From: Ignavibacteriota bacterium
GTDB lineage: Bacteria; Bacteroidota; Ignavibacteria; Palsa-1295
Direction: 5' to 3'
Assembly: GCA_963787835.1 (NCBI GenBank)
Contig: CAWBEI010000002.1
Location: forward strand, 476,369 to 540,368
DNA length: 64,000 bases
Numbering within the stretch: position 1 is the first letter of the stretch; the number at the start of each line of letters is the position of its first letter. The notes beneath the pieces were generated by a model. The model did no database searches. It saw only the letters and a list, made by a program, of their open reading frames with translations, and was not told the origin of the DNA. Of this stretch, positions 18,173-58,561 are shown piece by piece. The translations under genes and the position numbers were made by a program.

Positions 18173-21100
18173 TTACTGTTTTTCGATGGTGAGCTTGCTC
18201 GAGAGCGTGGCGCTGCGGCCGTCGGCTCCGGTGGCGGTCATCTCATAGAGATAGCTGCCGCTCGGTAGCGAGGTCAGGTCGAGCTTCACGTTCTGGGTGC
18301 CCGCCTCGAACGACTGGTTCGTCACCTCGCTGTTGACCACCTTGCCCGTCACGTCCATCACCCGCAGCGTTACCTGCGAGGCTTCCGGAAGCGTGAACGA
18401 TACCTCCGTCACACCGGCCGAGGGATTCGGATAGCTCTGGCCCAGTGTAAAGCCAAGCTGGCTTGCATCCGGACCCAGTTCCACCGTATTCGAGTACGTC
18501 TCCGCACCCGTCTCATCGACCGCCGCAATGCGGTACGTGTACGACTGCGAAGGATCCAGACCCGTGATCGAGGAGGCATAGTCCGTCTGATCCGCGACCG
18601 CCGTCACCGGATGCAGCACCGTCCAGCTGTTCTGGTTCTGCTGCTCCACATCGTAGCGTACCACGTTCGGCAAGCCTACCACATCCCACGTGATCGTCGC
18701 GGCATTACCGCTGACCCGCTGAATGCTCGCACTCACATTGTCGATCGGTAGGATCGTACCATTGTGACTGCGGAAGAAGGCAAAGGCTGCTGCAAGCGTT
18801 CGTGTCGTACCGCTCGTCAATGCATCCTGTGCCGCCGTGCTCGGAGACGTCTGGTGCGGGTTCGCCCAGTCAAAGGCATAGAACACCGTGTTCACCAGGG
18901 GATCGTAATACGATACACCCGCTCCATTGTTCGGATTGCTGTACGAGTAGTTCGAGTACGTGTACGCATACCCGTTGACCTTCGGACCCACCGCAGGCGT
19001 CGTCAGGGATGGCATGATCACGTTCGGTGTCAGGCTCGAGGTCAGATCCGTCGAGCATTCCTCGCAGTCACTCCCGTTCGGATTGACCGGGATCGAAAGG
19101 CTGTCCGCAAACGTCCAGTACGCCGGCTGCTGGCCCACGATCCGGCCAATATACGAGGAACTCGTCGGGTAGTTCGCCACATACTGTGTGTGCATCGTCG
19201 ATTGCATCCATTGCGTATCCGTCACCGGATTGTTCGACTGCACATACCCATTGTAGTAGGCAATGTGCTGGCCCGCGATCACAAGGCTCTTCTTCGCATA
19301 GCTCTGCCCTGCGCCCAGATACCGCGTGATCTCATCCGTCTCCTGCAGCGTCGGACCGCCCTGACCCGTCGACTGACCGGCAACCGGGGCAACGCCCGGA
19401 TCGCCGCTCGACCACACGATCGTCCACCACGGCGTGTAATCGATGATCGTCGTGTTCGGAAGGCCCTTCGGAGCGTTACGGTCGATCGTGTCGAACGGTA
19501 CCCCTAATCGGTTCAACGCCGCGATCACCGAATCACGGTTCTGACGGCCATCCGAGGCCGCACCATTATAGGAAAGCAATACCGCATTCTGCTTCAACAG
19601 GATCGTAAACGTCTTCGTCTGCGAGTTGTTCGCGTCGTTCTGGTCGTTCGGGACGCTCACCGTTACCCGGAACACCCCCGTGCTGTTCGACGCCGTCAAC
19701 GCCGGACCCTGGAACGCGACGCTCTTCGACTCGCCCACCTGCCACGTCAACGGGGCAGACGTGCCCGTATACACCGTCGTCCATACACCATTGACCGAAC
19801 GCTGCACCGTCGCCGTGACCTTCTGGCTATAGACGCCTACGCTCGATAGGTTCTTCACCACGCCCGTGATCCATAACGGACTCTCCGTCGTCACTAAGGA
19901 CGTGTCGCTCGTCTGCGAGAACCCGCCCGGCTGTGAGATCTCTAAGACCGCAAGATCGTTCGTGAACTGGAACCCGTCCCATTCATCCGCCCCGATGTCC
20001 GGGCTCGGATTGTTCTGCGAACGAACGTCTCCGTCGAAATCATGAGCCTCCGACGACGTACCAAGCCACGCGCCGTTGTTCGAGGCCGGACTTTCGATGT
20101 ACGTCAAGGCCGGTGGCATGTGCAACGAATCCACTCCCATCGCTGGCGTACCGAACAACGGATCGCCCGATAACGAGTGGCTGTCCTGACCCACATACGT
20201 ACGCCAGTCGTTCAAACGGCGGAAGTACAGGCTCTGGAATACCGTCCCATACCGTGCGTCGTACTCCGTCACCGAGTCGAAGACGTTCGTGCCACGCAAA
20301 TCGAATACGTTATAGTCCGAACTGATCGAACTTGCATACGGACGAGGTACCTCTAAGTTGTAGTTCGTGTACGGACCGGTGCCCGTGTTCTGGAAAATGT
20401 TGTTCCAGATGAACGCGTGCTTCGCGTATTTGATCGTGATGTTCGATGTCGCGTTGTTCGTCGAGATCGAGTTGTTGAACACCGAATCCTTGTCCGTCGA
20501 ATACGGAACCGTGCCCGACGTCGAAGAGATCGTCGTCATCAGGATCGGGAACACCTTCCCCGCGCTCGTACGAAGGTCTAAGATCATGTTGTTCGTCAAT
20601 CGGTTCTGCGTTACCGCCGGTAACGTCGATTTCACATTCGTCAGACCCGTGCTCGTGTACTGCCACGACGACTGCTGCAGCGCGATCCCATGCGTGTTGC
20701 CCGCTGCCGATGTCATGATACGGATCCGGTTCGCATCGATCCAGGCACCCGTCACGTTACCCGTGTCACCCGCCCACTGAGGGTTCGAAGGCGGGCCGAT
20801 GTACGTGTTCATGTTCGGCTGTACAATGCCATACACATTCCACGTCGCTCCGCCGCCCTGCGGTACTACGTTCGCGTTCACGTTCGAGATCTCGTTGTGT
20901 GAGATCACGATCCCGGTCTCGCTGTTGAACTGGATGCCCGCGTACGATAATGGGTTCGACGACGTACCTACCGTGTTCCGCGTGATCACGTCATTGTAGT
21001 TGCGCCACGTCGTGTACGCACCCTTCACCGGATCGTACGCATCGTGGTACCCGTGATCGTAGATCCCATACTTCGCATTGCCAAGCTCGCAGTTGTTGAC

Positions 21101-24130: not shown

Positions 24131-27100
24131 TTACTGTTTTTCGATGGTGAGCTTGCTCGAGAGCGTGGCGCTGCGGCCGTCGGCTCCGGTGGCGGTCATC
24201 TCATAGAGATAGCTGCCGCTCGGTAGCGAGGTCAGGTCGAGCTTCACGTTCTGGGTGCCCGCCTCGAACGACTGGTTCGTCACCTCGCTGTTGACCACCT
24301 TGCCCGTCACGTCCATCACCCGCAGCGTTACCTGCGAGGCTTCCGGAAGCGTGAACGATACCTCCGTCACACCGGCCGAGGGATTCGGATAGCTCTGGCC
24401 CAGTGTAAAGCCAAGCTGGCTTGCATCCGGACCCAGTTCCACCGTATTCGAGTACGTCTCCGCACCCGTCTCATCGACCGCCGCAATGCGGTACGTGTAC
24501 GACTGCGAAGGATCCAGACCCGTGATCGAGGAGGCATAGTCCGTCTGATCCGCGACCGCCGTCACCGGATGCAGCACCGTCCAGCTGTTCTGGTTCTGCT
24601 GCTCCACATCGTAGCGTACCACGTTCGGCAAGCCTACCACATCCCACGTGATCGTCGCGGCATTACCGCTGACCCGCTGAATGCTCGCACTCACATTGTC
24701 GATCGGTAGGATCGTACCATTGTGACTGCGGAAGAAGGCAAAGGCTGCTGCAAGCGTTCGTGTCGTACCGCTCGTCAATGCATCCTGTGCCGCCGTGCTC
24801 GGAGACGTCTGGTGCGGGTTCGCCCAGTCAAAGGCATAGAACACCGTGTTCACCAGGGGATCGTAATACGATACACCCGCTCCATTGTTCGGATTGCTGT
24901 ACGAGTAGTTCGAGTACGTGTACGCATACCCGTTGACCTTCGGACCCACCGCAGGCGTCGTCAGGGATGGCATGATCACGTTCGGTGTCAGGCTCGAGGT
25001 CAGATCCGTCGAGCATTCCTCGCAGTCACTCCCGTTCGGATTGACCGGGATCGAAAGGCTGTCCGCAAACGTCCAGTACGCCGGCTGCTGGCCCACGATC
25101 CGGCCAATATACGAGGAACTCGTCGGGTAGTTCGCCACATACTGTGTGTGCATCGTCGATTGCATCCATTGCGTATCCGTCACCGGATTGTTCGACTGCA
25201 CATACCCATTGTAGTAGGCAATGTGCTGGCCCGCGATCACAAGGCTCTTCTTCGCATAGCTCTGCCCTGCGCCCAGATACCGCGTGATCTCATCCGTCTC
25301 CTGCAGCGTCGGACCGCCCTGACCCGTCGACTGACCGGCAACCGGGGCAACGCCCGGATCGCCGCTCGACCACACGATCGTCCACCACGGCGTGTAATCG
25401 ATGATCGTCGTGTTCGGAAGGCCCTTCGGAGCGTTACGGTCGATCGTGTCGAACGGTACCCCTAATCGGTTCAACGCCGCGATCACCGAATCACGGTTCT
25501 GACGGCCATCCGAGGCCGCACCATTATAGGAAAGCAATACCGCATTCTGCTTCAACAGGATCGTAAACGTCTTCGTCTGCGAGTTGTTCGCGTCGTTCTG
25601 GTCGTTCGGGACGCTCACCGTTACCCGGAACACCCCCGTGCTGTTCGACGCCGTCAACGCCGGACCCTGGAACGCGACGCTCTTCGACTCGCCCACCTGC
25701 CACGTCAACGGGGCAGACGTGCCCGTATACACCGTCGTCCATACACCATTGACCGAACGCTGCACCGTCGCCGTGACCTTCTGGCTATAGACGCCTACGC
25801 TCGATAGGTTCTTCACCACGCCCGTGATCCATAACGGACTCTCCGTCGTCACTAAGGACGTGTCGCTCGTCTGCGAGAACCCGCCCGGCTGTGAGATCTC
25901 TAAGACCGCAAGATCGTTCGTGAACTGGAACCCGTCCCATTCATCCGCCCCGATGTCCGGGCTCGGATTGTTCTGCGAACGAACGTCTCCGTCGAAATCA
26001 TGAGCCTCCGACGACGTACCAAGCCACGCGCCGTTGTTCGAGGCCGGACTTTCGATGTACGTCAAGGCCGGTGGCATGTGCAACGAATCCACTCCCATCG
26101 CTGGCGTACCGAACAACGGATCGCCCGATAACGAGTGGCTGTCCTGACCCACATACGTACGCCAGTCGTTCAAACGGCGGAAGTACAGGCTCTGGAATAC
26201 CGTCCCATACCGTGCGTCGTACTCCGTCACCGAGTCGAAGACGTTCGTGCCACGCAAATCGAATACGTTATAGTCCGAACTGATCGAACTTGCATACGGA
26301 CGAGGTACCTCTAAGTTGTAGTTCGTGTACGGACCGGTGCCCGTGTTCTGGAAAATGTTGTTCCAGATGAACGCGTGCTTCGCGTATTTGATCGTGATGT
26401 TCGATGTCGCGTTGTTCGTCGAGATCGAGTTGTTGAACACCGAATCCTTGTCCGTCGAATACGGAACCGTGCCCGACGTCGAAGAGATCGTCGTCATCAG
26501 GATCGGGAACACCTTCCCCGCGCTCGTACGAAGGTCTAAGATCATGTTGTTCGTCAATCGGTTCTGCGTTACCGCCGGTAACGTCGATTTCACATTCGTC
26601 AGACCCGTGCTCGTGTACTGCCACGACGACTGCTGCAGCGCGATCCCATGCGTGTTGCCCGCTGCCGATGTCATGATACGGATCCGGTTCGCATCGATCC
26701 AGGCACCCGTCACGTTACCCGTGTCACCCGCCCACTGAGGGTTCGAAGGCGGGCCGATGTACGTGTTCATGTTCGGCTGTACAATGCCATACACATTCCA
26801 CGTCGCTCCGCCGCCCTGCGGTACTACGTTCGCGTTCACGTTCGAGATCTCGTTGTGTGAGATCACGATCCCGGTCTCGCTGTTGAACTGGATGCCCGCG
26901 TACGATAATGGGTTCGACGACGTACCTACCGTGTTCCGCGTGATCACGTCATTGTAGTTGCGCCACGTCGTGTACGCACCCTTCACCGGATCGTACGCAT
27001 CGTGGTACCCGTGATCGTAGATCCCATACTTCGCATTGCCAAGCTCGCAATTATTAACCACGAGATTGTTCATCGCTACGGTATCGCGAATACCCGAGCC

Positions 27101-29791
27101 ATAGACATAGAAGTTGTGCTCGTTGTAGATACGGACCGCCGAGCACGAGTCGTTCGCGAACATCCCGTTCCCGTGGATCACCAGATCCTTCAGCGTGATG
27201 TTGCTCGCACCGTATTCGATACCGAAGACCGCACCCGCCTTCGTCTCGTTGCTGACGATCGTCAAGCCGCGCTTCAAGGGCTCGGCCGTCACCTTGTCCG
27301 GGGACGGAACCGTCGACGGGTTATAGCCCTCGAAGTTCATATAACCAGGGAAGTGGTCGCCCATGTAAAAACAGAATGGCTGTGAGCCGCTGAACGTGAT
27401 CGTCGGATTTTGGCCCGGATATGGGATCCACGTCACCGTCGAACTCGCCGAAAGGCCGTTGATCTGGCCAAGGTCCACCGCGCCATACGGAGAGGCCACA
27501 TCGGTGTTCCCGTTCTCCGTGTAGGACGCATCCGTCAGGATCATCCGTACGTTCGCTCCGATACCGCGGAACCGCATCGTGTCCACCGCCTGATGGATCG
27601 TCTGGAACTGGCGCCCTACGCCCACATAGTAATCGCCCTTCAAACGGTCAATGATCGAAAACTGCGTGCACGACGTGTCGTTCGTCTGGTTCTCGTCGCT
27701 GCCCGCGCTGCTGCTGAAGTCTGCGATCGCGCACAGCGTGTAGCATCCCGGCGGGATCGTCGCGATCGTGTGGTATGCACCCGCGTTCGCTGTCGTTGGA
27801 AACTTGAACAGCACCTGACCCTGGTCGATGTTCAAGGCATCTTCTACCGTATCCGACTGGAATGCCAGCAACCCATCCGAACAACGGCGGATCTGGCAAC
27901 GGATCTTGAAGCTGAACAGGTCCGATACACCCACCGACTGGAACAGCGCCGATGGCTGCCACGTCGTCAAATACGGCTTCTCTTCACCCGGCTGAGGGTT
28001 GAACACTCCCACCGAGGCCGCATCGTAAAGTGGAAGGATCGGCGTCGGAGATTTCGTCGTGTCGTCCGCACGCAGCTGATCGTTACCCATGATCGCAATA
28101 CCGAAGACCGTATCCACGCCCAGCGTCACCGGAGTCCACGTCGGGCTTGAAGGGAACGCCGTATCGTAATACGCGCCTCTGCCCGGACCCTGACCGCTCG
28201 AGGAATAATCCGTCACCCCATCCGAGTTGCCACCCATTGGGCCGGAAGGCCAGTAAGGGATCACGACCGTGTCACGGAAGACCACTTTGCCCGTCGCGTC
28301 GTGTACCGTTGCCGTCACCGGTACATTGTATTGCGTGTCCGTTCCAAGGTTACGGAAACGGATCGAGATCGGCGTAGCAATATCCACCTGGGTTCGGGAA
28401 CCCGCCGGAGGATTGATCACCGAGACCCCCTTGATGTCGTTCGGTGGAGCGCACGTCCACTCATCCGTCGATTGGTTGTCTGCGGGATCCTGATCTGCCG
28501 TCGGCTGTAGATTGAACACCGTCATCGTGTCCTCGTAGATCCCATAGCCCGTGCTTTGGGCTTCGCCGAACTGCGCCGCCTGACCTGGCGCAAACTGCGG
28601 GAACGTGATCGTCGAATTGCTGAACGCCGCCGGGATCTGCGAGCTGTTCAGGGTGATCGTCTGATTATATACCTGGCCTACGCCATACTCCGAGATCGTG
28701 AAGTTCACCTGGCACGACGTTGAGACCTGCGAACCCGAATTTGTAAGGATCGCCGTTGGGGTGAAGTTCGTATTGATCGCCTGTGGAGTTTCGCTGGCAG
28801 GATTGGTGATCGTACCAGCCGTCAGATCGTACGGCCAAGCGATGAACACACGATAGCTCGATTGCGGGAGCAGAGGCTCCGTCGCGTTGTCTTCCGCTGC
28901 ATAGCCATAGGCAAAACTGGTGTAGCCACTATTAGAATAATTATTGCAGTATTGAACCAACGGTTGATTCGAAGGGCTGCCGCCGTTGCCGTTCCAGCCG
29001 ATCGTCAGGTAATTACCGCCTGTGGATTTGACGGCAGTGTAGCCCGAGTATGATTCGATCAGCCAGCCGCCATAGGAGTAATAATACCCCCAGCTTGAGT
29101 TCCACGTCCCGGTCATCGGACCATAATTGAACTGGAAGTTCGAGATCCCTGACTCATAGACAACCGTCTGCCAGCTTCCAAAACATTGTGATAAGCCATA
29201 ATAATAAGAGGGTACAGCATCGGCCTCTACGACAAGCTCACGATTCGGAGCCGAGCCGAGAACCGTATAGAGCACGTTATAGCCAGAGCTGGGGCCATCT
29301 GTCAAAAACCCTTCGAAGGGGGCCAGCCTGTAATTGCCGTAATAGGAGTACCCGTAGTTGTAATCCTCTTCGTTCTCATAGAGGCAGTATGGAATGTAGT
29401 CATACACGTACCCATATTCACTTAGAAAAAACCAATCGTACCCACCGTAATCGTAGTTGGCAGTGCTGGGCCAGGTGGGGCTGAACACGACCGTGCCATA
29501 GTTGTTAAACCGGAACGTGTTTGTCGTCGCGATCTGCGTGTTTAAGAACCGGAATGCAAACGGCACCTGATAGGCCGCCGACATTTGTTCGCCATCGTAC
29601 TGCGATGACAATCCGCCGCTGGTGCCTGTGACGGAATGCCAGTTCGAGCCGGAACCTAATCCCTGCGGATCAGGCGTATCGACCTTCCGGACGAAGTAGC
29701 TGGTCATCGTGTACGTTTGCGCCTGCGCAACCTCGGAGGAAATGATTCCGAGCGCGAAAAGCGCGAGAAGAAAAGCGTAGAGTTTTTTCAT
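24131..29791 (-). CDS. Giant (1,886 aa) secreted T9SS cargo protein, tandem paralog of 18173..23791. Identical over the C-terminal ~1,560 aa except one ~25-aa patch; the N-terminal ~300 aa are diverged
   Basis: The reverse-frame ORFs in the six-frame track are sequence-identical between the copies (for example 18764..19507 and 24722..25465). Same domain order as gene 1. Confidence 0.85.
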   Translation of the reverse strand: MKKLYAFLLALFALGIISSEVAQAQTYTMTSYFVRKVDTPDPQGLGSGSNWHSVTGTSGGLSSQYDGEQMSAAYQVPFAFRFLNTQIATTNTFRFNNYGTVVFSPTWPSTANYDYGGYDWFFLSEYGYVYDYIPYCLYENEEDYNYGYSYYGNYRLAPFEGFLTDGPSSGYNVLYTVLGSAPNRELVVEADAVPSYYYGLSQCFGSWQTVVYESGISNFQFNYGPMTGTWNSSWGYYYSYGGWLIESYSGYTAVKSTGGNYLTIGWNGNGGSPSNQPLVQYCNNYSNSGYTSFAYGYAAEDNATEPLLPQSSYRVFIAWPYDLTAGTITNPASETPQAINTNFTPTAILTNSGSQVSTSCQVNFTISEYGVGQVYNQTITLNSSQIPAAFSNSTITFPQFAPGQAAQFGEAQSTGYGIYEDTMTVFNLQPTADQDPADNQSTDEWTCAPPNDIKGVSVINPPAGSRTQVDIATPISIRFRNLGTDTQYNVPVTATVHDATGKVVFRDTVVIPYWPSGPMGGNSDGVTDYSSSGQGPGRGAYYDTAFPSSPTWTPVTLGVDTVFGIAIMGNDQLRADDTTKSPTPILPLYDAASVGVFNPQPGEEKPYLTTWQPSALFQSVGVSDLFSFKIRCQIRRCSDGLLAFQSDTVEDALNIDQGQVLFKFPTTANAGAYHTIATIPPGCYTLCAIADFSSSAGSDENQTNDTSCTQFSIIDRLKGDYYVGVGRQFQTIHQAVDTMRFRGIGANVRMILTDASYTENGNTDVASPYGAVDLGQINGLSASSTVTWIPYPGQNPTITFSGSQPFCFYMGDHFPGYMNFEGYNPSTVPSPDKVTAEPLKRGLTIVSNETKAGAVFGIEYGASNITLKDLVIHGNGMFANDSCSAVRIYNEHNFYVYGSGIRDTVAMNNLVVNNCELGNAKYGIYDHGYHDAYDPVKGAYTTWRNYNDVITRNTVGTSSNPLSYAGIQFNSETGIVISHNEISNVNANVVPQGGGATWNVYGIVQPNMNTYIGPPSNPQWAGDTGNVTGAWIDANRIRIMTSAAGNTHGIALQQSSWQYTSTGLTNVKSTLPAVTQNRLTNNMILDLRTSAGKVFPILMTTISSTSGTVPYSTDKDSVFNNSISTNNATSNITIKYAKHAFIWNNIFQNTGTGPYTNYNLEVPRPYASSISSDYNVFDLRGTNVFDSVTEYDARYGTVFQSLYFRRLNDWRTYVGQDSHSLSGDPLFGTPAMGVDSLHMPPALTYIESPASNNGAWLGTSSEAHDFDGDVRSQNNPSPDIGADEWDGFQFTNDLAVLEISQPGGFSQTSDTSLVTTESPLWITGVVKNLSSVGVYSQKVTATVQRSVNGVWTTVYTGTSAPLTWQVGESKSVAFQGPALTASNSTGVFRVTVSVPNDQNDANNSQTKTFTILLKQNAVLLSYNGAASDGRQNRDSVIAALNRLGVPFDTIDRNAPKGLPNTTIIDYTPWWTIVWSSGDPGVAPVAGQSTGQGGPTLQETDEITRYLGAGQSYAKKSLVIAGQHIAYYNGYVQSNNPVTDTQWMQSTMHTQYVANYPTSSSYIGRIVGQQPAYWTFADSLSIPVNPNGSDCEECSTDLTSSLTPNVIMPSLTTPAVGPKVNGYAYTYSNYSYSNPNNGAGVSYYDPLVNTVFYAFDWANPHQTSPSTAAQDALTSGTTRTLAAAFAFFRSHNGTILPIDNVSASIQRVSGNAATITWDVVGLPNVVRYDVEQQNQNSWTVLHPVTAVADQTDYASSITGLDPSQSYTYRIAAVDETGAETYSNTVELGPDASQLGFTLGQSYPNPSAGVTEVSFTLPEASQVTLRVMDVTGKVVNSEVTNQSFEAGTQNVKLDLTSLPSGSYLYEMTATGADGRSATLSSKLTIEKQ

Positions 29792-37775: not shown

Positions 37776-38459
37776 AGCTTAGGAACCCCAGAAATCCGAC
37801 TTTTGCGCCCGGCGCATCCGTTTTGCACCATACATCGCCGCCCGATCAACTGGTAATTCTATCCCCCTCCCATGAGCGACACGGCGATAGACCCAAAAGT
37901 TACAAGCAGTATCAAAAAAACGCATTTTGTCTCCAAGAAATGCTTGGCAGTGTGTTTGTTCTTTTGGAGTTCATGAACTGTCGCGTTATAGACTCGGAAA
38001 CGCCATCTGTTCTTTCGGCAAAGTGCCATCATATTTTTTTTACATATTCATTTAATGAACTTTTTTCTCGCTCGAATCAACTATTCATGAATTCAAGCGT
38101 CATTACGTTCGAAATTCCCATCCTTCTTTAATCTTTAAGATCCATCCTTTCTTAATCCTGAAAATCCTGTAAATCGTGGTCTAATTTACACTTTCCGAAA
38201 CAGGTGCCCATAATCCCACTCTCAAACATACAACATCCCAAACCCAAAAGCAAGGAAAATCTGAATATAATTGAATTTTTTCAGCGCCGTTAGGCGCGGC
38301 CCGTTTGTAGAAAATGATCGTTTTATGAAATCGATCGAGCTCCGTAAGAGCGGGCACAGGTCGCTCCTACGGAGCTTGAAATGCCTAAATGGGATAATTT
38401 CTACAAACTGGCCACGCCTACGGCGTTGTCATTGTCTGAACCTGGAATTCTGAGATAAT

Positions 38460-38519
38460 GTGTACACCGGGTTTCAACCCGGTGCGGGATTCTTCACCGG
38501 GTTGAAACCCGGTGTACAC
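38460..38519. terminator. Perfect 25-bp inverted repeat; each arm is itself palindromic. It lies downstream of the 822-aa gene
   Basis: GTGTACACCGGGTTTCAACCCGGTG-cgggattcttc-CACCGGGTTGAAACCCGGTGTACAC. Confidence 0.6.
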
Positions 38520-38529
38520 TTGAAACAGG

Positions 38530-54343: not shown

Positions 54344-54722
54344 TCACGAATTTCAATCCCGAAAGGACGGCATATTTGCAGCCCCGGACGTGAGTCCGGG
54401 GTTTTGCGTTTTGTATAAACGCGTAGGTCGGTGCTTCCATCGTGGGCGATGGAGCCAGCCCGACAATCCCCGAGAACGAAAGAAAAAGTGCCGTAGGGAC
54501 GTGCTGCGCACGTCCTTTGTGCCGGAGCGCTAATTCCAGATTTTGGATGATCTCAAATTCGTTTGACATTCACCGGGGCGGACGTGCGCAGCACGTCCCT
54601 ACGGATCCAGCTCCGATATGAGCGGCATATTGGTAGCCCCGTGCGTAAGCGCGGGGTGCGCGGGATCTTTTTAAGAGCCAGAGTCCCGGAGCGACGACAC
54701 AAAAAAGTGCCGGAGGCACGAA

Positions 54723-54926
54723 GTACCCGCAGCCCAGGGTGGAGCGAAGCGGAACCCTGGGTAACGAATAAAATTAGAGTTTATTAGCCCTGAAAGGGCG
54801 ATGTTTGCCGCCGGGATTTTACAACGCCCTTTCAGGGCTTGGGAACATAAAACGCAACGCTAACCCAGGGTTCCGCTCGCAAGCTCGCTTCACCCTGGGC
54901 TGCGAGTACTCCGTCGCTCCGCGACT
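54723..54926. mobile_element. MITE derivative of the IS200/IS605-like element (left-end hairpin, inner palindrome, right-end hairpin; no tnpA)
   Basis: Left GTACCCGCAG-CCCAGGG…CCCTGGG (54723-54766). Inner AGCCCTGAAAGGGCG…CGCCCTTTCAGGGCT (54786-54839). Right …CACCCTGGG-CTGCGAGTAC-TCCGTCGCTCCGCGACT (54862-54926). It ends 7 nt from the stop of the 298-aa gene. Confidence 0.55.
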
Positions 54927-54932
54927 AATTGC

Positions 54933-55829
54933 TCATTCAATTATTGGAACTATCTGAATTTTGTTGGACAGTTCGGTACGACCGAAACTTTTCAGGAAGG
55001 ATTGCAGGGCGTTGAAGCCGGATTGGTCAGGTACGACGATTTCCAAAACATCCTCATCGTTGAACGTTAAGTTGAATTCGGGCTTTAACCATTTATCGTC
55101 AGAACCAGCGTCAATAGTTTCGTCGCCCTTAAAACCATGAGGAGACAGTGCGCGCCATTCCCTCTCATCATAATTGCGAATGCGCTCTCCGGTTGGGAGA
55201 TTTTCTTCGTAGCAGCGCATATAGGAGTCGCGATCCTCAAGTTCATTGTGGAGCCTGCGTATAGCCCACATTAGAGCACTGAAGGTTTGCCGCATTGCTT
55301 CATCTTCTGGCAGGTTGCCATCTGCAATCGCAACTAATTCCCGCATGTATTTTTCGAGTTTGCCGTGTTCGGTTCGAAGAGCCGTTGGGTCCATTGGCGT
55401 TCCATCTCCATATTGCTCAGAGAGTTCACGGAGTCTTGATGCCTGCAACATTTGCAAATAACTTCTGTCCGAACTATATGGCTCCGGCAACACGTCCGGC
55501 AAATGATTTAAGTTCTTGAATGCTAAGTACGAGCCTCCGACACCTACGGAGTCAGTATGCACATAACGGACGGGCGAAATCCGATTTTTTATTCCCCATT
55601 CCTTTGTCAAACCAATGGCCACCGGACGCGCTTTGCGAAGGTGTGGAGCGTCAGATGAAGGCAGGTCGCAAAAACAAACAACATAATTGGTCTGCGTGTA
55701 AGGAAACTTGGGGTATGGAACCGTTTCGACCTGTTTAGAATAGCGGAACCCGCCACAGGCCAGAATCGATTTGCATGCCTCTAATGATGTATAATGGAAA
55801 AGCGTGTCAGTACTGATCTTATTGGGCAT
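54933..55829 (-). CDS. Hypothetical protein with an AbiGi/DUF2971-like N-terminal motif; candidate abortive-infection / defense component
   Basis: N-terminal …TLFHYTSLEACKSILACGGF… matches the FHYT…IL signature of those families. The rest is unassigned. Confidence 0.4.
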   Translation of the reverse strand: MPNKISTDTLFHYTSLEACKSILACGGFRYSKQVETVPYPKFPYTQTNYVVCFCDLPSSDAPHLRKARPVAIGLTKEWGIKNRISPVRYVHTDSVGVGGSYLAFKNLNHLPDVLPEPYSSDRSYLQMLQASRLRELSEQYGDGTPMDPTALRTEHGKLEKYMRELVAIADGNLPEDEAMRQTFSALMWAIRRLHNELEDRDSYMRCYEENLPTGERIRNYDEREWRALSPHGFKGDETIDAGSDDKWLKPEFNLTFNDEDVLEIVVPDQSGFNALQSFLKSFGRTELSNKIQIVPIIE

Positions 55830-55854
55830 ATCCCCTCCAAAATTTTACATTATT

Positions 55855-56391
55855 TTACGCCTTCAAAAACCCCAGCTCATACACCATTGGCTGTAACTTT
55901 TCCGTCAATGCTTTGTAGGCCGATTCGAAGGGTTTGAAGCTGACGGGCGGGAAATCGCCGCTTTCGTTACGAGCTTGCAACGCCTTGCGGATTTGATACC
56001 ACCCCACATCCGCGCGGTTTAGTTTTAGTTCTTCGCGGACGGTGTGAACGTCAGTATCGGCAAAATATGCTTTCCACAATGCTTTTCCGGCTTCGAGCAC
56101 TGCGCTGGCTTCTTTCGAGAATTTCTTACCGCGCATATATTGCACCATAAAATCGCTCTCGAACCTGTCGGGCGCGCCGACCTCTTTTTCAGTGAAGGGA
56201 ATGAAATGGTTCACGATGCTCCACTTCTTTCCGTTCCATTCTAAATCGTTGGCGCTGGCGGTGAGGTTGCTGCCTAAGAATTTAGTCCCGAAGGGATGGT
56301 GTACTCGCAGCCCAGGGTGTAGCGTAGCGGAACCCTGGGTTCGAGGTAGGTATAAATTTCTAAGCCCCGAAGGGGCGATGTACCTAATCAT
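55855..56391 (-). CDS. Hypothetical protein. Its 5' end is overlapped by the IS200-like left end, so the true start is uncertain
   Basis: ORF encoding …GKKWSIVNHFIPFTEKEVGAPDRFESDFMVQYMRGKKF… with no recognisable family. The first ~30 codons coincide with 56301-56377 of the element. Confidence 0.3.
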   Translation of the reverse strand: MIRYIAPSGLRNLYLPRTQGSATLHPGLRVHHPFGTKFLGSNLTASANDLEWNGKKWSIVNHFIPFTEKEVGAPDRFESDFMVQYMRGKKFSKEASAVLEAGKALWKAYFADTDVHTVREELKLNRADVGWYQIRKALQARNESGDFPPVSFKPFESAYKALTEKLQPMVYELGFLKA

Positions 56392-56803
56392 CGTCCTTCA
56401 AAAAATATTTTGGATCGTATTCAATCCCTGCCGCTTTCAACATATCCTCAAACTCTTCTTGGAACGTCTTATGACGATGATGTTCCTCTTGATTTTCGAT
56501 GTATTGCGCGACATTCTTGAGATGACTTGCGCTTACGCTGAATACACCATAACCGCCTTGCCAGCTAAAATCTTTTCCTAATTTTGATTTCAACCAAGCC
56601 GATGATTTCGATTTTATCTCACGAACGACGGTTGCGACCGACGATTCACGACCGAGATCGATCAGGAGGTGCACATGATCAGGCATTCCGCCTTCCATAA
56701 TCAATCGCGCCTTGCATTCGTGCAAGATCGGAGGTTAACCCAACATTCCGTCCGCCGCGGCGGACTCCATGTTGGGCTGCGAGTACTCCGTCGCTCCGCG
56801 ACT
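56301..56803 (-). mobile_element. tnpA: IS200/IS605-like insertion element: left-end hairpin, N-terminally truncated Y1 (HuH) transposase TnpA (56384..56725), right-end hairpin
   Basis: The 113-aa ORF carries the HuH motif (…PDHVHLLI…), the catalytic Tyr block (…GGYGVFSVS…) and the family C-terminal motif …YIENQEE. It starts at TTG directly after an in-frame TAA at the right-end boundary, so it lacks the N-terminal ~40 aa. Left end: GTACTCGCAG-CCCAGGG…CCCTGGG. Right end: CCCAACAT…ATGTTGGG-CTGCGAGTAC. Confidence 0.7.
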
Positions 56804-56830
56804 ATTGAATCTCAGTGGCGAAGCCACGAT

Positions 56831-57009
56831 GTACTCGCAGCCCAGGGCGCGCGAAGCAAGCCCTGGGTCATGAATTTTAACAAAATCAAGCCCTGTAAGG
56901 GCGGTGTACTTCGCCCTTTCAGGGCTTGATAAAAATAAGAATGGTTCCGTTAACCCAACATTCCGCTTCGCTCCATGTTGGGCTGCGAGTACTCCGTCGC
57001 TCCGCGACT
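56831..57009. mobile_element. Second MITE derivative (left end, inner palindrome AGCCCTGTAAGGGCG/CGCCCTTTCAGGGCT, right end); its last bases supply the stop codon of the HNH ORF
   Basis: Same terminal and subterminal hairpins as the element at 54723-54926. Confidence 0.55.
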
Positions 57010-57322
57010 AAGATTCGCCAACAAGTGCATCCATGATTGGAATATTTCTCCGGCGGGAATTATCGTGCAAGCAACATGTCACGAGATTATCGTATGAATT
57101 ATCCCCGCCTTTTGTGACAGGCTGAATGTGATCGAGCGTCGCGCTGAATCGTGTTAGCTGCTTACCGCATTTGTAACACTTGTAGCCGTCCCGTTCGAAA
57201 ATCTTGAGACGATTTTCAGCGACATTGTAAAAGAGTGCCGAATTCCACGACCGAGTGACGAAACAAATACCAATAGAATGCGGCCTCGTATGGTAACAAT
57301 CGGGGCTGAAGAAAATCCACAA
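57008..57322 (-). CDS. HNH endonuclease
   Basis: …GYKCYKCGKQLT…LDHIQPVTKGGDNSYDNLVTCCLHDNSRRRN… gives the full HNH / zinc-finger motif. The start is probably downstream of the annotated Met. Confidence 0.7.
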   Translation of the reverse strand: MWIFFSPDCYHTRPHSIGICFVTRSWNSALFYNVAENRLKIFERDGYKCYKCGKQLTRFSATLDHIQPVTKGGDNSYDNLVTCCLHDNSRRRNIPIMDALVGES

Positions 57323-57449
57323 TCTGACAGACGATACCTGGATGTTCGAGAGCGTCGAAGTTTCTCTCGAACGAATCCGGAGCGGCAGCCTTTGAATCCG
57401 TTTCGATCTCGTTAAGCAGTTCTCGAATTTTTTCGATTTGTTCTTTCAT
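57216..57449 (-). CDS. Small hypothetical ORF; overlaps the HNH ORF in another frame
   Basis: 77 aa. Its stop overlaps the HNH ORF by 107 nt, so the pair may be one frameshifted gene. Confidence 0.25.
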   Translation of the reverse strand: MKEQIEKIRELLNEIETDSKAAAPDSFERNFDALEHPGIVCQIVDFLQPRLLPYEAAFYWYLFRHSVVEFGTLLQCR

Positions 57450-57700
57450 ATTTTTACAAAATTACGAATAAACTCATCTTCCTGCGTTTCGATCTTGAAG
57501 GAAACGAGGTGCGTACCGATATACTGCGAGACGGTGTCCAGCGCTTCCTGCGTAACGTCGCTCGCCCGCTTGCCCCACTTGATCGTCTTTTTTTCGAGGA
57601 ACGGAATAACGTCCGCGCTCTTCATTATAGCCGCTTTCTGCGTATCGACCACCGCAAGAAATGGCGGAACATACTCGCCCTTGTTCAATGCCTGCTGCAC
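57446..57700 (-). CDS. Small hypothetical ORF (GTG start) in 4-nt overlap with the next ORF
   Basis: 84 aa, with ATGA-type coupling to 57216..57449. Confidence 0.25.
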   Translation of the reverse strand: MQQALNKGEYVPPFLAVVDTQKAAIMKSADVIPFLEKKTIKWGKRASDVTQEALDTVSQYIGTHLVSFKIETQEDEFIRNFVKI

Positions 57701-57897
57701 ATAATGCAGACCGCCGCGGCGGACGTGAACATCGCATAACTGGAAAGCTTGGAGTTATCCTTCGCCTCGAACCAAATTTCTTTGGTTTGAATATCGATCA
57801 GGTTTTTCGAATACCCCTTCAACCCCAGCGCCTTGATGTAAATATCCTTCACATCCTCCTCGCTTTTGCACTGTTTCAGTTTTTCAAAGAGGGTCAT
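57685..57897 (-). CDS. Small hypothetical ORF; first of four consecutive overlapping minus-strand ORFs
   Basis: 70 aa. Its 3' end overlaps the next ORF at a CCGCCGCGGCGG palindrome. Confidence 0.25.
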   Translation of the reverse strand: MTLFEKLKQCKSEEDVKDIYIKALGLKGYSKNLIDIQTKEIWFEAKDNSKLSSYAMFTSAAAVCIMCSRH

Positions 57898-58047
57898 GCG
57901 TGTGAAGGGTTATGGATTGGGTTATGAATTCGGGATTGATGCTTTGCGGGCGCGGGAAAGAACATAGTGGGCACCTATTTCGTGTTCCATCCATCCCACG
58001 ATTTGTGCCGTCCCTCCGGGACTTTTAACTCTAAAAAAATCGCTAAC

Positions 58048-58067
58048 CCCGGACTCACGTCCGGGGC
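58048..58067. repeat. GC-rich hairpin CCCCGGACTCACGTCCGGGG. It is the exact reverse complement of 54383-54402, and together the two bracket the island
   Basis: Flanking bases also match (…catatt[t/c]g[c/t]agccccggacgtgagtccggggtt…), giving ~35-bp imperfect inverted repeats. Confidence 0.6.
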
Positions 58068-58561
58068 TACGAATATGTCGTGCCTATCGGCACTAAGAAA
58101 ATAATTTGGAATTTTGAGGCGTCTCGGAAAAGTGTCGTATATTAGGTGGTGAGATGATGGGCACCTATATCAATTACGAATTAAGAATTACGAATTAAGA
58201 GTAGGGGCTCGGGGTTCATTGACAATCGTCGGCGGTGGCTTTCGTTATGAACGAGTCCTTTGAGAAAATGGATTTTACTATTCTTTCAGAACAAATGGCG
58301 AAAGCAGCTCGGAAACGAGGGGTCTTCGGGAACTCACAAGAAAAAGAAATGGCACCTATTTCCAATAGAACATTAGTAAGGGTGGTAAACATTTTTACCT
58401 ACGTACCGGGAAACGGGAAGGAGCAAAATTCGTTGTGAAGGTACTCTGGCACGTTTAGCCGGAACATCCTCCATAATCACGACACGTTGCCTTTGATCGA
58501 ACCACCCTCCACTCCCACTGGAAATCCGGTCCCGCCGGATCTGCCACCCGATCCACATATC

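What the first reader, a model, noticed from the sequence alone, without database searches (positions are those of the whole stretch)
56301..57009. IS200/IS605-like element with an N-truncated HuH transposase plus tnpA-less MITE copies that sit at gene 3' ends
The 113-aa ORF has the HuH motif, the catalytic-Tyr block and the …YIENQ C-terminal signature of Y1 transposases. It starts at TTG right after a TAA inside the right-end hairpin, so the N-terminal ~40 aa typical of TnpA are missing. It is flanked by a left end (GTACTCGCAG-CCCAGGG…CCCTGGG) and a right end (CCCAACAT…ATGTTGGG-CTGCGAGTAC). The same ends, joined by a short palindromic linker (AGCCCTGWAAGGGCG…CGCCCTTTCAGGGCT) with no tnpA, occur at 54723-54926 and 56831-57009. 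Those copies sit within 0-7 nt of the stop codons of the AbiGi-like and HNH genes. This is the REP/RAYT-like picture of an autonomous element and its non-autonomous derivatives targeting hairpins at gene ends. The truncated transposase raises the question of whether the element is still mobilisable in trans.
Basis: partly seen in the sequence, partly recalled or inferred. Interest (0 to 1): 0.6.

Follow-up and report, generated by a model that had tools for sequence, protein, structure and literature searches.

The report
Defective Y1 transposon plus miniature copies
A small mobile-DNA element whose transposase gene has lost its first 38 codons sits beside two gene-less miniature copies of itself, and its hairpin-forming ends are the 'Acido-Lenti-1' motif that RNA databases list as a small RNA of unknown function.

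Summary
ORF 56384-56725(-) is the C-terminal 113 aa of a 151-aa HUH/Y1 transposase. A ~147-150-bp deletion removed its start codon and 38 codons.

The remnant is bracketed by two inverted ~58-67-nt units, each made of a long hairpin, a conserved linker and a 5-bp hairpin. Two tnpA-less doublets of the same units lie at 54706-54926 and 56814-57009.

The units match Rfam RF01687 (Acido-Lenti-1). In every close relative examined (13 loci), and in many distant ones from Acidobacteriota, Verrucomicrobiota and Planctomycetota, the same kind of unit flanks the transposase gene in inverted orientation. In Acidobacteriota these units score above Rfam's own threshold.

Copies in unrelated contexts share a sharply bounded 651-692-bp module. 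Metagenomes hold at least 22 distinct tnpA-less doublets, mostly with no tnpA in the contig stretch held.

The protein fits TnpA-Y1 subclass 1.2, which the literature describes as lacking REPs.

Best reading: a decayed copy of a REPtron/TIRtron-like insertion sequence together with its MITE/REPIN-like derivatives. The kind is known. What appears new is the pairing of this transposase subclass with these ends, and the re-reading of an orphan "sRNA" family as DNA ends of a transposon. Mobility and mechanism are inferred, not shown.

The parts
56384..56725 (-). 5'-truncated tnpA: residues 39-151 of a 151-aa HUH/Y1 transposase (TnpA-Y1 subclass 1.2-like). Beta1 and most of helix A are missing.
   Evidence: Pfam Y1_Tnp E=1.3e-17, profile positions 39-121/121. 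Alignment A1. Alignment to IS608 TnpA.
56733..56734 (.). Deletion junction. Relative to L001 and L005, about 147-150 bp are missing: the spacer, the small hairpin next to the start codon, the ATG and 38 codons. There is TTA microhomology at the junction.
   Evidence: blastn of the window against L001, L005 and L006. Sequences.
56737..56803 (+). End unit on the 5' side of tnpA: long hairpin CCCAACAT..ATGTTGGG, linker CTGCGAGTAC, 5-bp hairpin GTCGC-TCC-GCGAC, terminal ACT.
   Evidence: Model R1 61.5 bits, R2 59.3 bits.
56284..56341 (-). End unit on the 3' side of tnpA (CCCAGGGT..ACCCTGGG type). It lies inside the 5' part of ORF 55855-56391.
   Evidence: R1 68.1 bits. RF01687 21.4 bits.
56363..56377 (.). 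Small hairpin AGCCCCGAAGGGGCG just after the tnpA stop codon. Its counterpart next to the start codon was lost in the deletion.
   Evidence: Sequence. Same feature in L001, L005 and L006.
56814..57009 (.). tnpA-less doublet B (196 bp): unit 56814-56869(-), central hairpin 56885-56930, unit 56952-57009(+). The HNH stop codon TAG overlaps its last 2 nt.
   Evidence: DNA fold z=-7.9. RF01687 33.1 and 25.2 bits.
54706..54926 (.). tnpA-less doublet A (221 bp): unit 54706-54763(-), central hairpin 54786-54839, unit 54862-54926(+). It ends 6 nt from the AbiGi stop codon.
   Evidence: DNA fold z=-11.9. Also present at L005 11580-11801, 81% identical.
58045..58094 (+). Short-loop unit of the same family. 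Its reverse complement reads GTAG directly at the hairpin foot.
   Evidence: RF01687 39.0 bits, above the gathering score of 37. R1 54 bits.
54355..54403 (-). Short-loop unit, 12 nt downstream of the EF-G stop codon.
   Evidence: RF01687 36.1 bits. R1 57.7 bits.
54609..54658 (-). Short-loop unit, more degenerate.
   Evidence: RF01687 20.7 bits. R1 46.8 bits.
55855..56391 (-). 178-aa ORF whose ATG overlaps the tnpA stop. Codons 1-43 are encoded by the small hairpin and the end unit. Codons 44-178 are the 3' remnant of a ~790-aa NPPY-motif protein gene that is intact in L095.
   Evidence: dN/dS 0.06-0.12 for codons 44-end; 0.3-0.8 for codons 1-43..
57446..57897 (-). 5' remnant of the same large gene. 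In the window it is split into two frames.
57008..57322 (-). HNH nuclease gene next to doublet B. It is a neighbour, not part of the element, and this slot holds different genes in related genomes.
   Evidence: Pfam HNH E=8.2e-9. L001 has HNH_repeat+HNH and L005 has MUG113/T5orf172 at the same place.
54933..55829 (-). AbiGi-family gene next to doublet A. It is a neighbour in a variable slot.
   Evidence: Pfam AbiGi E=8.9e-13. Replaced by other genes in L001, L005, L006 and L095.

Best explanation
The region holds a decayed copy of a small insertion-sequence-like element. The intact form is 651-692 bp. It encodes a 151-aa HUH/Y1 single-strand-DNA transposase of the IS200-related subclass 1.2 and is bounded by two inverted, structured end units. 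Each unit is a long hairpin, a conserved ~10-nt linker and a 5-bp hairpin ending in ACT, which is the Rfam Acido-Lenti-1 motif. Next to it lie two ~200-bp derivatives made of the two ends without the gene (MITE/REPIN-like), and three single units.

Shown here: the anatomy; the deletion that removed the first 38 codons; conservation of the unit-tnpA-unit arrangement across phyla; covariation in both hairpins; the sharp module boundaries; and gene-less doublets in contigs without tnpA.

Inferred by analogy with IS608 TnpA and E. coli TnpA-REP: a transposase dimer binds the folded hairpins when the DNA is single-stranded, for example on the lagging-strand template. It cleaves near the unit end through the catalytic Tyr (Y113 in YIENQ) and the HUH-bound metal, then rejoins the strands. 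This would move full elements and, in trans, the doublets.

The window copy lacks beta1 and helix A and is almost certainly inactive. It and the doublets could move only with an intact paralogue. A related MAG carries four paralogues, three of them with open reading frames.

One step is unresolved. The two ends are inverted, so a given strand does not present both in the same orientation, which the IS608 same-strand excision scheme requires.
For: Protein:
- Y1_Tnp match and truncation.
- The nearest solved structures are IS608 and ISDra2 TnpA.
- NCBIfam transpos_IS200 scores 72.3, above its cut-off of 55.

Deletion:
- About 147-150 bp are missing relative to L001 and L005.
- dN/dS of the remnant against intact relatives is 0.02-0.13, consistent with (not proof of) a recent truncation.

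Units flanking tnpA:
- Covariance models find a unit on the minus strand upstream and one on the plus strand downstream in 13 of 13 close loci (12 on both sides).
- 29 of 68 distant loci have at least one correctly oriented flanking unit (12 on both sides).
- Density is 2.0-2.3 units per kb within 250 nt of tnpA, against 0-0.03 per kb beyond 4 kb.
- Orientation is 35:4 upstream and 36:9 downstream.
- Without any model, 59 of 78 loci have a significant inverted repeat around tnpA.
- Rfam's own model scores 39-63 bits (cut-off 37) on units flanking tnpA in Acidobacteriota loci.

Structure:
- 98.4% of cells pair, with 125 double-sided changes and only 5 G-U cells.

Signs of mobility:
- Similarity between copies in unrelated contexts ends at the outer ends of the units.
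- One MAG has four paralogues in different contexts.
- Of 38 non-duplicate metagenome loci, 22 carry tnpA-less doublets of 196-290 bp and 4 carry tnpA.
- Short-read contigs carrying the AbiGi gene break inside the unit.
- 4 of 16 full-length copies carry a nonsense codon, the kind of decay expected of a selfish element.
Against: - No empty site versus filled site pair, no target-site duplication and no target motif were found. Only a purine at the first flanking base stands out. Transposition itself is therefore not demonstrated.
- Paralogues in one MAG are 75-95% identical, not near-identical as in an active IS.
- In this 64-kb window all units lie within 3.7 kb of tnpA, so genome-wide dispersal in this organism is unproven.
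- Inverted ends do not fit the IS608 same-strand excision scheme.
- Relatives are almost absent from plasmids, in 2 of 72,556 records.
- The module sits at the same place, inside the remnants of the same disrupted gene, in four related loci. That also fits long residence rather than recent movement.
Confidence: 0.7

Rival explanations
1. A domesticated RAYT-like system. On this reading the Y1 gene is a vertically inherited host gene that no longer copies itself. The units are REP/REPIN-type repeats that it maintains, with host-level roles such as mRNA 3'-end stabilisation or protein binding. The window copy would be a lineage-specific loss of the gene.
For: - Strong purifying selection on tnpA (dN/dS 0.02-0.13).
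- Low copy number with divergent paralogues.
- Near absence from plasmids.
- Same location in four related loci.
- Doublets lie close to stop codons.
- The literature describes an IS200 'Group 3' with RAYT-like traits and abundant flanking 16-mers (PMC5581495).
Against: - 5 of 17 copies are inactivated (4 nonsense codons plus this deletion).
- The unit-tnpA-unit module is sharply bounded and sits in unrelated contexts, including four sites in one MAG.
- In this lineage it lies inside a disrupted gene.
- The RAYT sequence signatures are absent: Y---NP is missing and NF047646 scores 30.7 against a cut-off of 80.
Confidence: 0.2
2. The units are genuine structured RNAs, as Rfam files Acido-Lenti-1. 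They could be small RNAs or UTR elements that control transposase expression or stabilise neighbouring transcripts. On this reading their link to tnpA is regulatory rather than as DNA substrates.
For: - Rfam and Weinberg 2010 rated the motif a probable RNA on the basis of covariation.
- Units lie in the would-be 5' and 3' UTRs of tnpA, 40-80 nt from the ORF.
- Many lie just after stop codons.
Against: - Units occur equally on both strands as inverted pairs.
- Pairing is almost purely Watson-Crick: 5 G-U cells against 125 double changes. This is expected of a sequence that must fold on either DNA strand.
- Many Rfam seed sequences have an A-C mismatch in the annotated orientation that would be G-T on the other strand.
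- Doublets occur far from any tnpA.
- No T-run follows the hairpins.
Confidence: 0.07
3. The palindromes are ordinary terminators or chance inverted repeats, and the ORF is an unrelated gene fragment.
For: They are GC-rich hairpins located after genes.
Against: - Repeat counts far exceed shuffles.
- The family is found in over 100 loci from several phyla, always around the same gene family.
- Fold z-scores are -8 to -12.
Confidence: 0.01

Closest known systems
REPtron / REPIN-RAYT systems (E. coli TnpA-REP, Pseudomonas RAYTs; PMC2817692, PMC3116915, PMC3479197)
   Same: A Y1 HUH transposase gene flanked by inverted copies of a hairpin repeat. The same repeats occur elsewhere as inverted doublets without the gene. 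A conserved short sequence lies at the hairpin foot (GTAG or GCAG here). Repeats cluster next to the gene.
   Different: The protein is IS200-like (YIENQ..HH) rather than Y---NP, and it is not recognised by the RAYT model. The repeat has a second 5-bp hairpin and a 10-nt linker. There are several paralogues per genome, a quarter of them broken. The whole module recurs in different contexts. No high genome-wide copy number was seen.
TIRtrons / TIRYTs (Di Nocera et al. 2013, PMC3733652)
   Same: Tyrosine-transposase genes flanked by long terminal inverted repeats. Some of these repeats belong to moderately abundant families arranged as dimers or clusters.
   Different: Most described TIRYTs are longer RAYT-like proteins, mostly subclass 2.1 according to PMC6006769. 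Many of their repeats share a GGGGWSAS motif, which is not found here.
IS200/IS605 family (IS608, ISDra2, IS200)
   Same: This is the closest protein family by sequence, and its members have solved structures. It uses HUH plus a Tyr on a C-terminal helix and recognises hairpins near the element ends.
   Different: IS200/IS605 ends are not inverted repeats. Both of their hairpins are read on one strand, their copies are usually near-identical, and they insert next to a specific tetra- or pentanucleotide. None of this is seen here.
TnpA-Y1 subclass 1.2 (Quentin et al. 2018, PMC6006769)
   Same: Motifs DH[IV]H, WQ and Y---Q--HH, a length near 148 aa, a conserved C-terminal tail, and low copy number with divergent paralogues.
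   Different: The subclass was reported as having no REPs and no IS-type end structures, and as mostly confined to Cyanobacteria and Bacteroidetes. Here members from Ignavibacteriota, Acidobacteriota, Verrucomicrobiota, Planctomycetota and other phyla carry structured inverted ends.
Rfam RF01687 Acido-Lenti-1 RNA motif (Weinberg et al. 2010, PMC2864571)
   Same: The same two-hairpin architecture and linker consensus. One window copy and many acidobacterial copies score above the family threshold.
   Different: It is filed as a small RNA of unknown function, with no link to a transposase. The six long-loop units around tnpA in the window score below threshold (14-33 bits) because of an 11-20-nt larger loop and a changed linker.

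Membership tests
IS200/IS605 family (transposase) | Y1_Tnp domain with an HUH motif and a catalytic Tyr | tested here: met
   PF01797 E=1.3e-17. HVH and YIENQ are conserved. For the full-length relative, NF033573 scores 72.3 against a cut-off of 55.
IS200/IS605 family (element) | No terminal inverted repeats; left and right subterminal hairpins are read on the same strand | tested here: not met
   The ends are inverted copies of one unit in 13 of 13 close loci, and 59 of 78 loci overall have flanking inverted repeats.
IS200/IS605 family (element) | Multiple near-identical copies per genome | tested here: not met
   Four paralogues in MAG MFD04780.bin.1.195 are 95, 92, 77 and 75% identical to one reference. 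Only 20 kb around each was seen.
REP/RAYT (REPtron) | The transposase gene is flanked by its repeat in inverted orientation, and the same repeat occurs elsewhere as inverted doublets | tested here: met
REP/RAYT (REPtron) | RAYT protein signature (Y---NP; NCBIfam REP_Tyr_transpos) | tested here: not met
   The motif is YIENQEEHH. NF047646 scores 30.7 against a cut-off of 80. E. coli TnpA-REP is not among the PDB hits.
REP/RAYT (REPtron) | 5' GT[AG]G at the foot of the hairpin | tested here: inconclusive
   Short-loop units read GTAG or GCAG at the foot. Long-loop units read GCAG. The Rfam seeds read NYAG.
REP/RAYT (REPtron) | Repeats dispersed at high copy number through the genome | tested here: inconclusive
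   No unit is found in the ~60 kb of the window outside 54355-58094. However, 34 of 38 non-duplicate metagenome loci carry units with no tnpA in the stretch held. The whole genome was not available.
TnpA-Y1 subclass 1.2 (PMC6006769) | DH[IV]H, WQ, Y---Q--HH, about 148 aa, conserved C-terminal tail | tested here: met
   Alignment A1 shows DHVH, WQ, YI.NQEEHH, 151-153 aa and a conserved tail. The subclass table was read.
TnpA-Y1 subclass 1.2 (PMC6006769) | No REPs or IS-type end structures (as described) | tested here: not met
   Structured inverted ends are present. This contradicts the published description rather than the protein-level membership.
Rfam RF01687 Acido-Lenti-1 | Covariance-model score at or above the gathering score (37 bits) | tested here: inconclusive
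   58047-58094 scores 39.0 (met). 54355-54401 scores 36.1. The six units around tnpA and in the doublets score 14-33.1 (not met). Units flanking tnpA in Acidobacteriota score 39-63 (met).
Rfam RF01687 Acido-Lenti-1 | Two hairpins supported by covariation | tested here: met
   98.4% of cells pair, 7 of 10 pairs show double-sided changes, and no shuffle out of 500 reaches the observed score. The alignment was fitted to the model, so it leans towards the structure.
Rfam RF01687 Acido-Lenti-1 | Functions as an RNA | not testable with these tools
   No expression data were available. Indirect signs (both strands used, almost no G-U pairs) point to DNA.
MITE | The ends match those of an autonomous element, and no transposase gene lies inside | tested here: met
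   The doublets keep both units and the two small hairpins that flank the ORF in full elements.
MITE | Target-site duplication | tested here: not met
   No consistent direct repeat was found at 25 doublets and 15 full elements.
TIRtron/TIRYT (PMC3733652) | A tyrosine-transposase gene flanked by long terminal inverted repeats | tested here: met
   Inverted repeats span roughly 0-20 to 90-130 nt from the ORF on both sides.
TIRtron/TIRYT (PMC3733652) | RAYT-like TIRYT protein groups; GGGGWSAS motif in many of the repeats | tested here: not met
   The protein is IS200-like. I did not see the motif in the units read.

The most novel reading that the evidence does not exclude
The units may be more than ends of a selfish element. 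They could be the break-and-join points of a Y1-transposase-driven gene-exchange system in defence islands, loosely comparable to integron cassettes with attC sites.

In five related loci the slot between a conserved gene end and doublet A holds five different contents:
- AbiGi
- a PDC-M19B candidate defence gene
- a Gp49/RelE-like plus HTH gene pair (my reading of the sequences, not profile-tested)
- two unknown genes

The slot on the other side of tnpA holds two different HNH nucleases, a MUG113/T5orf172-domain protein or an unknown gene.

Between the window and L005, similarity resumes exactly at the outer end of the unit. Three of the neighbouring genes use a TAG stop codon supplied by the unit end.
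Probability: 0.1. Interest if true: 0.75.

Novelty: new variant of a known kind. Interest (0 to 1): 0.45.

Why it matters
- It gives a concrete, testable identity to an Rfam family that has been an orphan "small RNA" since 2010. Acido-Lenti-1 looks like the DNA end or REP of a Y1-transposase element, so automatic genome annotation of these sites as sRNA genes is probably misleading.
- It pairs TnpA-Y1 subclass 1.2 with a cognate structured repeat in at least five phyla. That subclass was described as having neither REPs nor IS-type ends. The pairing fills a gap between IS200 insertion sequences and domesticated RAYT/REPIN systems, and offers a compact protein-DNA pair (151 aa, ~58 nt) for biochemistry on how HUH enzymes handle inverted ends.
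- For this window specifically, the finding is a decayed copy. It is of local interest only, as a marker of a decaying, variable island that carries defence-type genes.

Tried and rejected
- Looking up the source contig through the exact AbiGi protein returned only two ~1-kb short-read contigs. The >1-Mb contig on record came back without DNA. P0007 was not on record.
- I searched for a target-site duplication or an insertion motif at 25 doublets and 15 full elements. There is no consistent duplication. Only the first flanking base is biased (purine in 96%).
- I searched for an empty site. Metagenome loci compared with the window and the other loci gave shared filled sites (L103, L114, L116) but no empty site. 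L095, with the intact large gene, differs from the disrupted loci by a 1.4-kb replacement, not a clean insertion.
- I first took the 178-aa ORF downstream of tnpA for a passenger gene of the element. I rejected this because it is the 3' remnant of a ~790-aa gene. It is nevertheless under purifying selection and starts at an ATG overlapping the tnpA stop, which I cannot explain.
- Pfam and PDB searches gave nothing for that large protein. There is only a weak adenine-methyltransferase hit (24.6 bits against a cut-off of 353.5) plus an NPPY motif.
- PADLOC gave no hit for most variable neighbours.
- I could not check whether IS200 'Group 3' of Bertels et al. is the same clade as subclass 1.2.
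Full report
**1. What is in the window**

The minus-strand ORF 56384-56725 (113 aa, TTG start) matches Pfam Y1_Tnp with E=1.3e-17, but only over profile positions 39-121 of 121. A database search gave 462 relatives. Full-length ones are 151-153 aa and the best is 95% identical. In a 36-sequence alignment the window protein lacks exactly the first 38 residues. It keeps DHVH (HUH), WQ and the Tyr motif YIENQEEHH.

In the alignment to IS608 TnpA (2a6m, E=1.4e-9), the missing part covers the first beta strand (YHIVWCPKYR in IS608) and the following helix. The remnant is therefore very unlikely to fold into an active enzyme. That last step is my inference from the known IS608 structure.

**2. How the truncation arose**

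Three related loci were fetched. L001 is a 148-kb metagenome contig. L005 and L006 are two contigs of the Ignavibacteriota MAG MFD04780.bin.1.195. All three carry a full-length gene in the same neighbourhood.

- Window 55855-56733 aligns to L005 10985-10107 at 90% identity.
- Window 56736-56806 aligns to L005 9956-9895.
- The window therefore lacks about 147-150 bp: a spacer, a small hairpin, the ATG and 38 codons. The junction shows TTA microhomology.
- dN/dS of the remnant against the intact relatives is 0.02-0.13. This is consistent with a recent deletion, though it cannot date it.
- The L005 copy itself has an in-frame TAG. So do 3 other copies among 16 full-length ones.

**3. The ends**

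GTACTCGCAGCCC occurs six times as three inverted pairs, and 0 of 100 shuffles reach that count.

It consists of:
- a long hairpin (CCCAGGGT..ACCCTGGG, or CCCAACAT..ATGTTGGG);
- the linker CTGCGAGTAC;
- about 3 nt;
- a 5-bp hairpin (GTSSC-NNN-GSSAC);
- a terminal ACT.

A scan against Rfam showed that these units are instances or near-instances of RF01687, the Acido-Lenti-1 RNA motif. One short-loop copy (58047-58094) scores 39.0 bits, above the family threshold of 37. Another scores 36.1. The six long-loop units score 14-33.

**4. The units belong to the transposase gene**

A covariance model was built from 14 units (R1) and rebuilt from 96 hits (R2). I searched 1.2 Mb around 81 tnpA relatives taken from one genome per species.

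- All 13 close loci (72-95% protein identity) have correctly oriented flanking units: a minus-strand unit 40-130 nt upstream and a plus-strand unit 48-62 nt downstream, 12 of them on both sides.
- 29 of 68 distant loci (36-48% identity) have at least one such unit, and 12 have both. Their record titles name Acidobacteriota, Verrucomicrobiota, Planctomycetota, Chloroflexota, Hydrogenedentota and others.
- Unit density is 2.0-2.3 per kb within 250 nt of the gene, against 0-0.03 per kb beyond 4 kb.
- Orientation is 35:4 upstream and 36:9 downstream.

Without any model, 59 of 78 loci have a significant inverted repeat between the 220 nt on either side of the gene.

Rfam's own model, at its own threshold, hits the units flanking tnpA in Acidobacteriota loci L022, L023, L030, L053 and L066, with 39-63 bits.

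Both hairpins are supported by covariation: 98.4% of cells pair and there are 125 double-sided changes. There are only 5 G-U cells. I would expect this of a sequence that has to fold on either DNA strand, and less so of an RNA. The alignment was fitted to the model, so the pairing percentage leans towards the structure.

**5. A discrete module and gene-less derivatives**

Pairwise comparison of 16 copies in unrelated contexts shows that similarity ends at the outer ends of the two units. These lie about -101 to -130 and +556 to +579 relative to the ATG. The module is 651-692 bp.

The two window doublets are 54706-54926 and 56814-57009. They contain both units and the two small hairpins that sit next to the start and stop codons of full elements. 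They therefore look like internal-deletion derivatives.

An exact-pattern scan of metagenome contigs returned 43 loci, 38 of them non-duplicate. Of these, 22 carry a tnpA-less doublet of 196-290 bp and only 4 carry a tnpA. Five are tnpA-free for at least 3 kb on both sides.

Two short-read contigs that carry the window's AbiGi gene break inside the unit, as repeats do in assemblies.

**6. Position relative to genes**

I examined doublet flanks that have an ORF of at least 100 aa within 300 nt. Of these, 23 face a gene's 3' end and 12 face a 5' end. Thirteen of the 23 lie within 20 nt of the stop codon and 4 overlap it.

However, I found no target-site duplication, no target motif beyond a purine at the first flanking base, and no empty site. 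Targeting of gene ends is not shown.

**7. Context**

The 178-aa ORF after tnpA (55855-56391) and the split ORFs at 57446-57897 are the 3' and 5' remnants of one ~790-aa gene. That gene is intact in metagenome locus L095. It has an NPPY motif and a weak hit to an adenine-methyltransferase family, far below cut-off.

In the window, L001 and L005, its middle 1.4 kb is replaced by a nuclease gene plus the tnpA module. L006 carries the module and the 3' remnant with a different upstream gene.

The neighbouring genes differ between these loci:
- on one side: HNH, HNH_repeat-HNH, MUG113/T5orf172, or a 272-aa unknown;
- on the other side: AbiGi, PDC-M19B, two unknowns, or what looks like a Gp49/RelE-like and HTH pair (my reading, not profile-tested).

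The flanks of the ~3.7-kb island differ between the window and L005. Within the 64-kb window, all units lie between 54355 and 58094.

**8. Comparison with what is known**

Protein. By sequence it is IS200-like. NCBIfam transpos_IS200 scores 72.3 against a cut-off of 55, while REP_Tyr_transpos scores 30.7 against 80. The nearest structures are IS608 and ISDra2 TnpA. Its motifs, length and tail fit TnpA-Y1 subclass 1.2 of Quentin et al. 2018. That paper describes the subclass as low-copy, with divergent paralogues, 'REP: no', and mostly in Cyanobacteria and Bacteroidetes.

Architecture. It matches REPtrons and REPINs (inverted hairpin repeats around a Y1 gene, plus gene-less inverted doublets) and the TIRtrons of Di Nocera et al. 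2013. It does not match IS200/IS605.

Earlier hints. Bertels et al. 2017 noted an IS200 'Group 3' with RAYT-like traits and abundant flanking 16-mers. It may be the same clade, but I could not verify this.

Acido-Lenti-1. Weinberg et al. 2010 say only that it occurs in Acidobacteria and Lentisphaerae and sometimes lies near group II introns. The five papers in the held library that mention it do not link it to a transposase, judging from their titles and abstracts apart from the Weinberg paper.

**9. Verdict**

The kind of thing is known: a Y1 transposase with hairpin repeats and miniature derivatives.

Two points appear new. One is the pairing of subclass 1.2 with a two-hairpin inverted end in several phyla. 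The other is the identification of that end with an orphan Rfam 'sRNA'.

Transposition, the cleavage site and the way inverted ends are processed remain inferred. The main rival is a domesticated RAYT-like system. It is favoured by the low copy number, the purifying selection and the rarity on plasmids (2 of 72,556 records). It is disfavoured by the broken copies and by the discrete module recurring in unrelated contexts.

Noticed in passing
window 38280-38430; L001 12978-13121: A ~150-bp palindromic element: a small hairpin GCGCC-GTTA-GGCGC, then GGCCCGTTTGTAG, a central hairpin, and the mirror image. It is 75% similar to a stretch inside the unit-rich region next to tnpA in L001. It looks like a second REPIN-like family, and models R1 and R2 do not detect it.
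   Followed up: partly
window 38462-38520: A near-perfect palindrome, GTGTACACCGGGTTTCAACCCGGTG ... CACCGGGTTGAAACCCGGTGTACAC, just downstream of the element above. It could be a terminator or a further repeat family.
   Followed up: no
window 54491-54604: A perfect 25-nt inverted repeat (CCGTAGGGACGTGCTGCGCACGTCC and its complement) with arms 64 nt apart, lying between two short-loop units. A look-alike sequence occurs at L001 ~13340-13480.
   Followed up: no
window 57446-57897 and 55855-56262; L095 2478-4829: These two stretches are the 5' and 3' remnants of one ~790-aa NPPY-motif gene that is intact in L095. The 3' remnant is still under purifying selection (dN/dS 0.06-0.12). It is read from an ATG overlapping the tnpA stop, through the end unit. 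Why a gene fragment should stay constrained is unexplained.
   Followed up: partly
window 57008-57010; L001 9899-9901; L005 9897-9899: Three different nuclease genes (two unrelated HNH genes and one MUG113/T5orf172 gene) sit at the same position next to the element in three genomes. Each ends in a TAG whose last two bases are the first two bases of the end unit (TAG|TCGCGG).
   Followed up: partly
window 54933-55829 and the same slot in L001, L005, L006 and L095: The slot between the end of the large-gene remnant and doublet A holds a different gene in each locus: AbiGi, PDC-M19B, a 183-aa unknown, a 224-aa unknown, or what looks like a Gp49/RelE-like plus HTH pair (not profile-tested). Between the window and L005, similarity stops at the stop codon on one side and resumes exactly at the outer end of the unit on the other.
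   Followed up: partly
L005, L010, L012, L125 (tnpA): Four of 16 otherwise well-conserved full-length tnpA copies carry one in-frame stop codon, each at a different position. This is either frequent recent inactivation or, for long-read MAGs, sequencing error.
   Followed up: partly
L023 9410-9657 and 10490-10936; L022 9258-9959: In two Acidobacteriota MAGs the units next to tnpA form head-to-tail arrays. L023 has at least 11 copies with a ~67-nt period. L022 has 4 identical copies with a 218-nt period. This differs from the inverted doublets of the Ignavibacteriota lineage.
   Followed up: no
window 58136-58360; L005 8174-8400; L006 13247-13471: A ~225-bp segment just outside the outermost unit recurs at 76-82% identity in two other loci. 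In L006 it lies on the other side of the array. Its nature is unknown.
   Followed up: no
window 57216-57449 and 57008-57322: The HNH gene appears split into two overlapping frames of 77 aa and 104 aa, and the large-gene 5' remnant is split as well. There are thus three damaged genes within about 1.5 kb. This is either real decay or indel errors in the assembly.
   Followed up: no
Rfam/Weinberg seed alignment of Acido-Lenti-1: Many Lentisphaera seed sequences (CCUAGC...GCCAGG) have an A-C mismatch at the fourth pair in the annotated orientation. It would be a G-T pair on the complementary strand. The annotated strand may therefore be the wrong one, or the strand may not matter.
   Followed up: no
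window 18173-23791 and 24131-29791: Two adjacent minus-strand ORFs of 1872 and 1886 aa have matching patterns of internal shadow ORFs. This suggests a tandem duplication of a giant gene.
   Followed up: no
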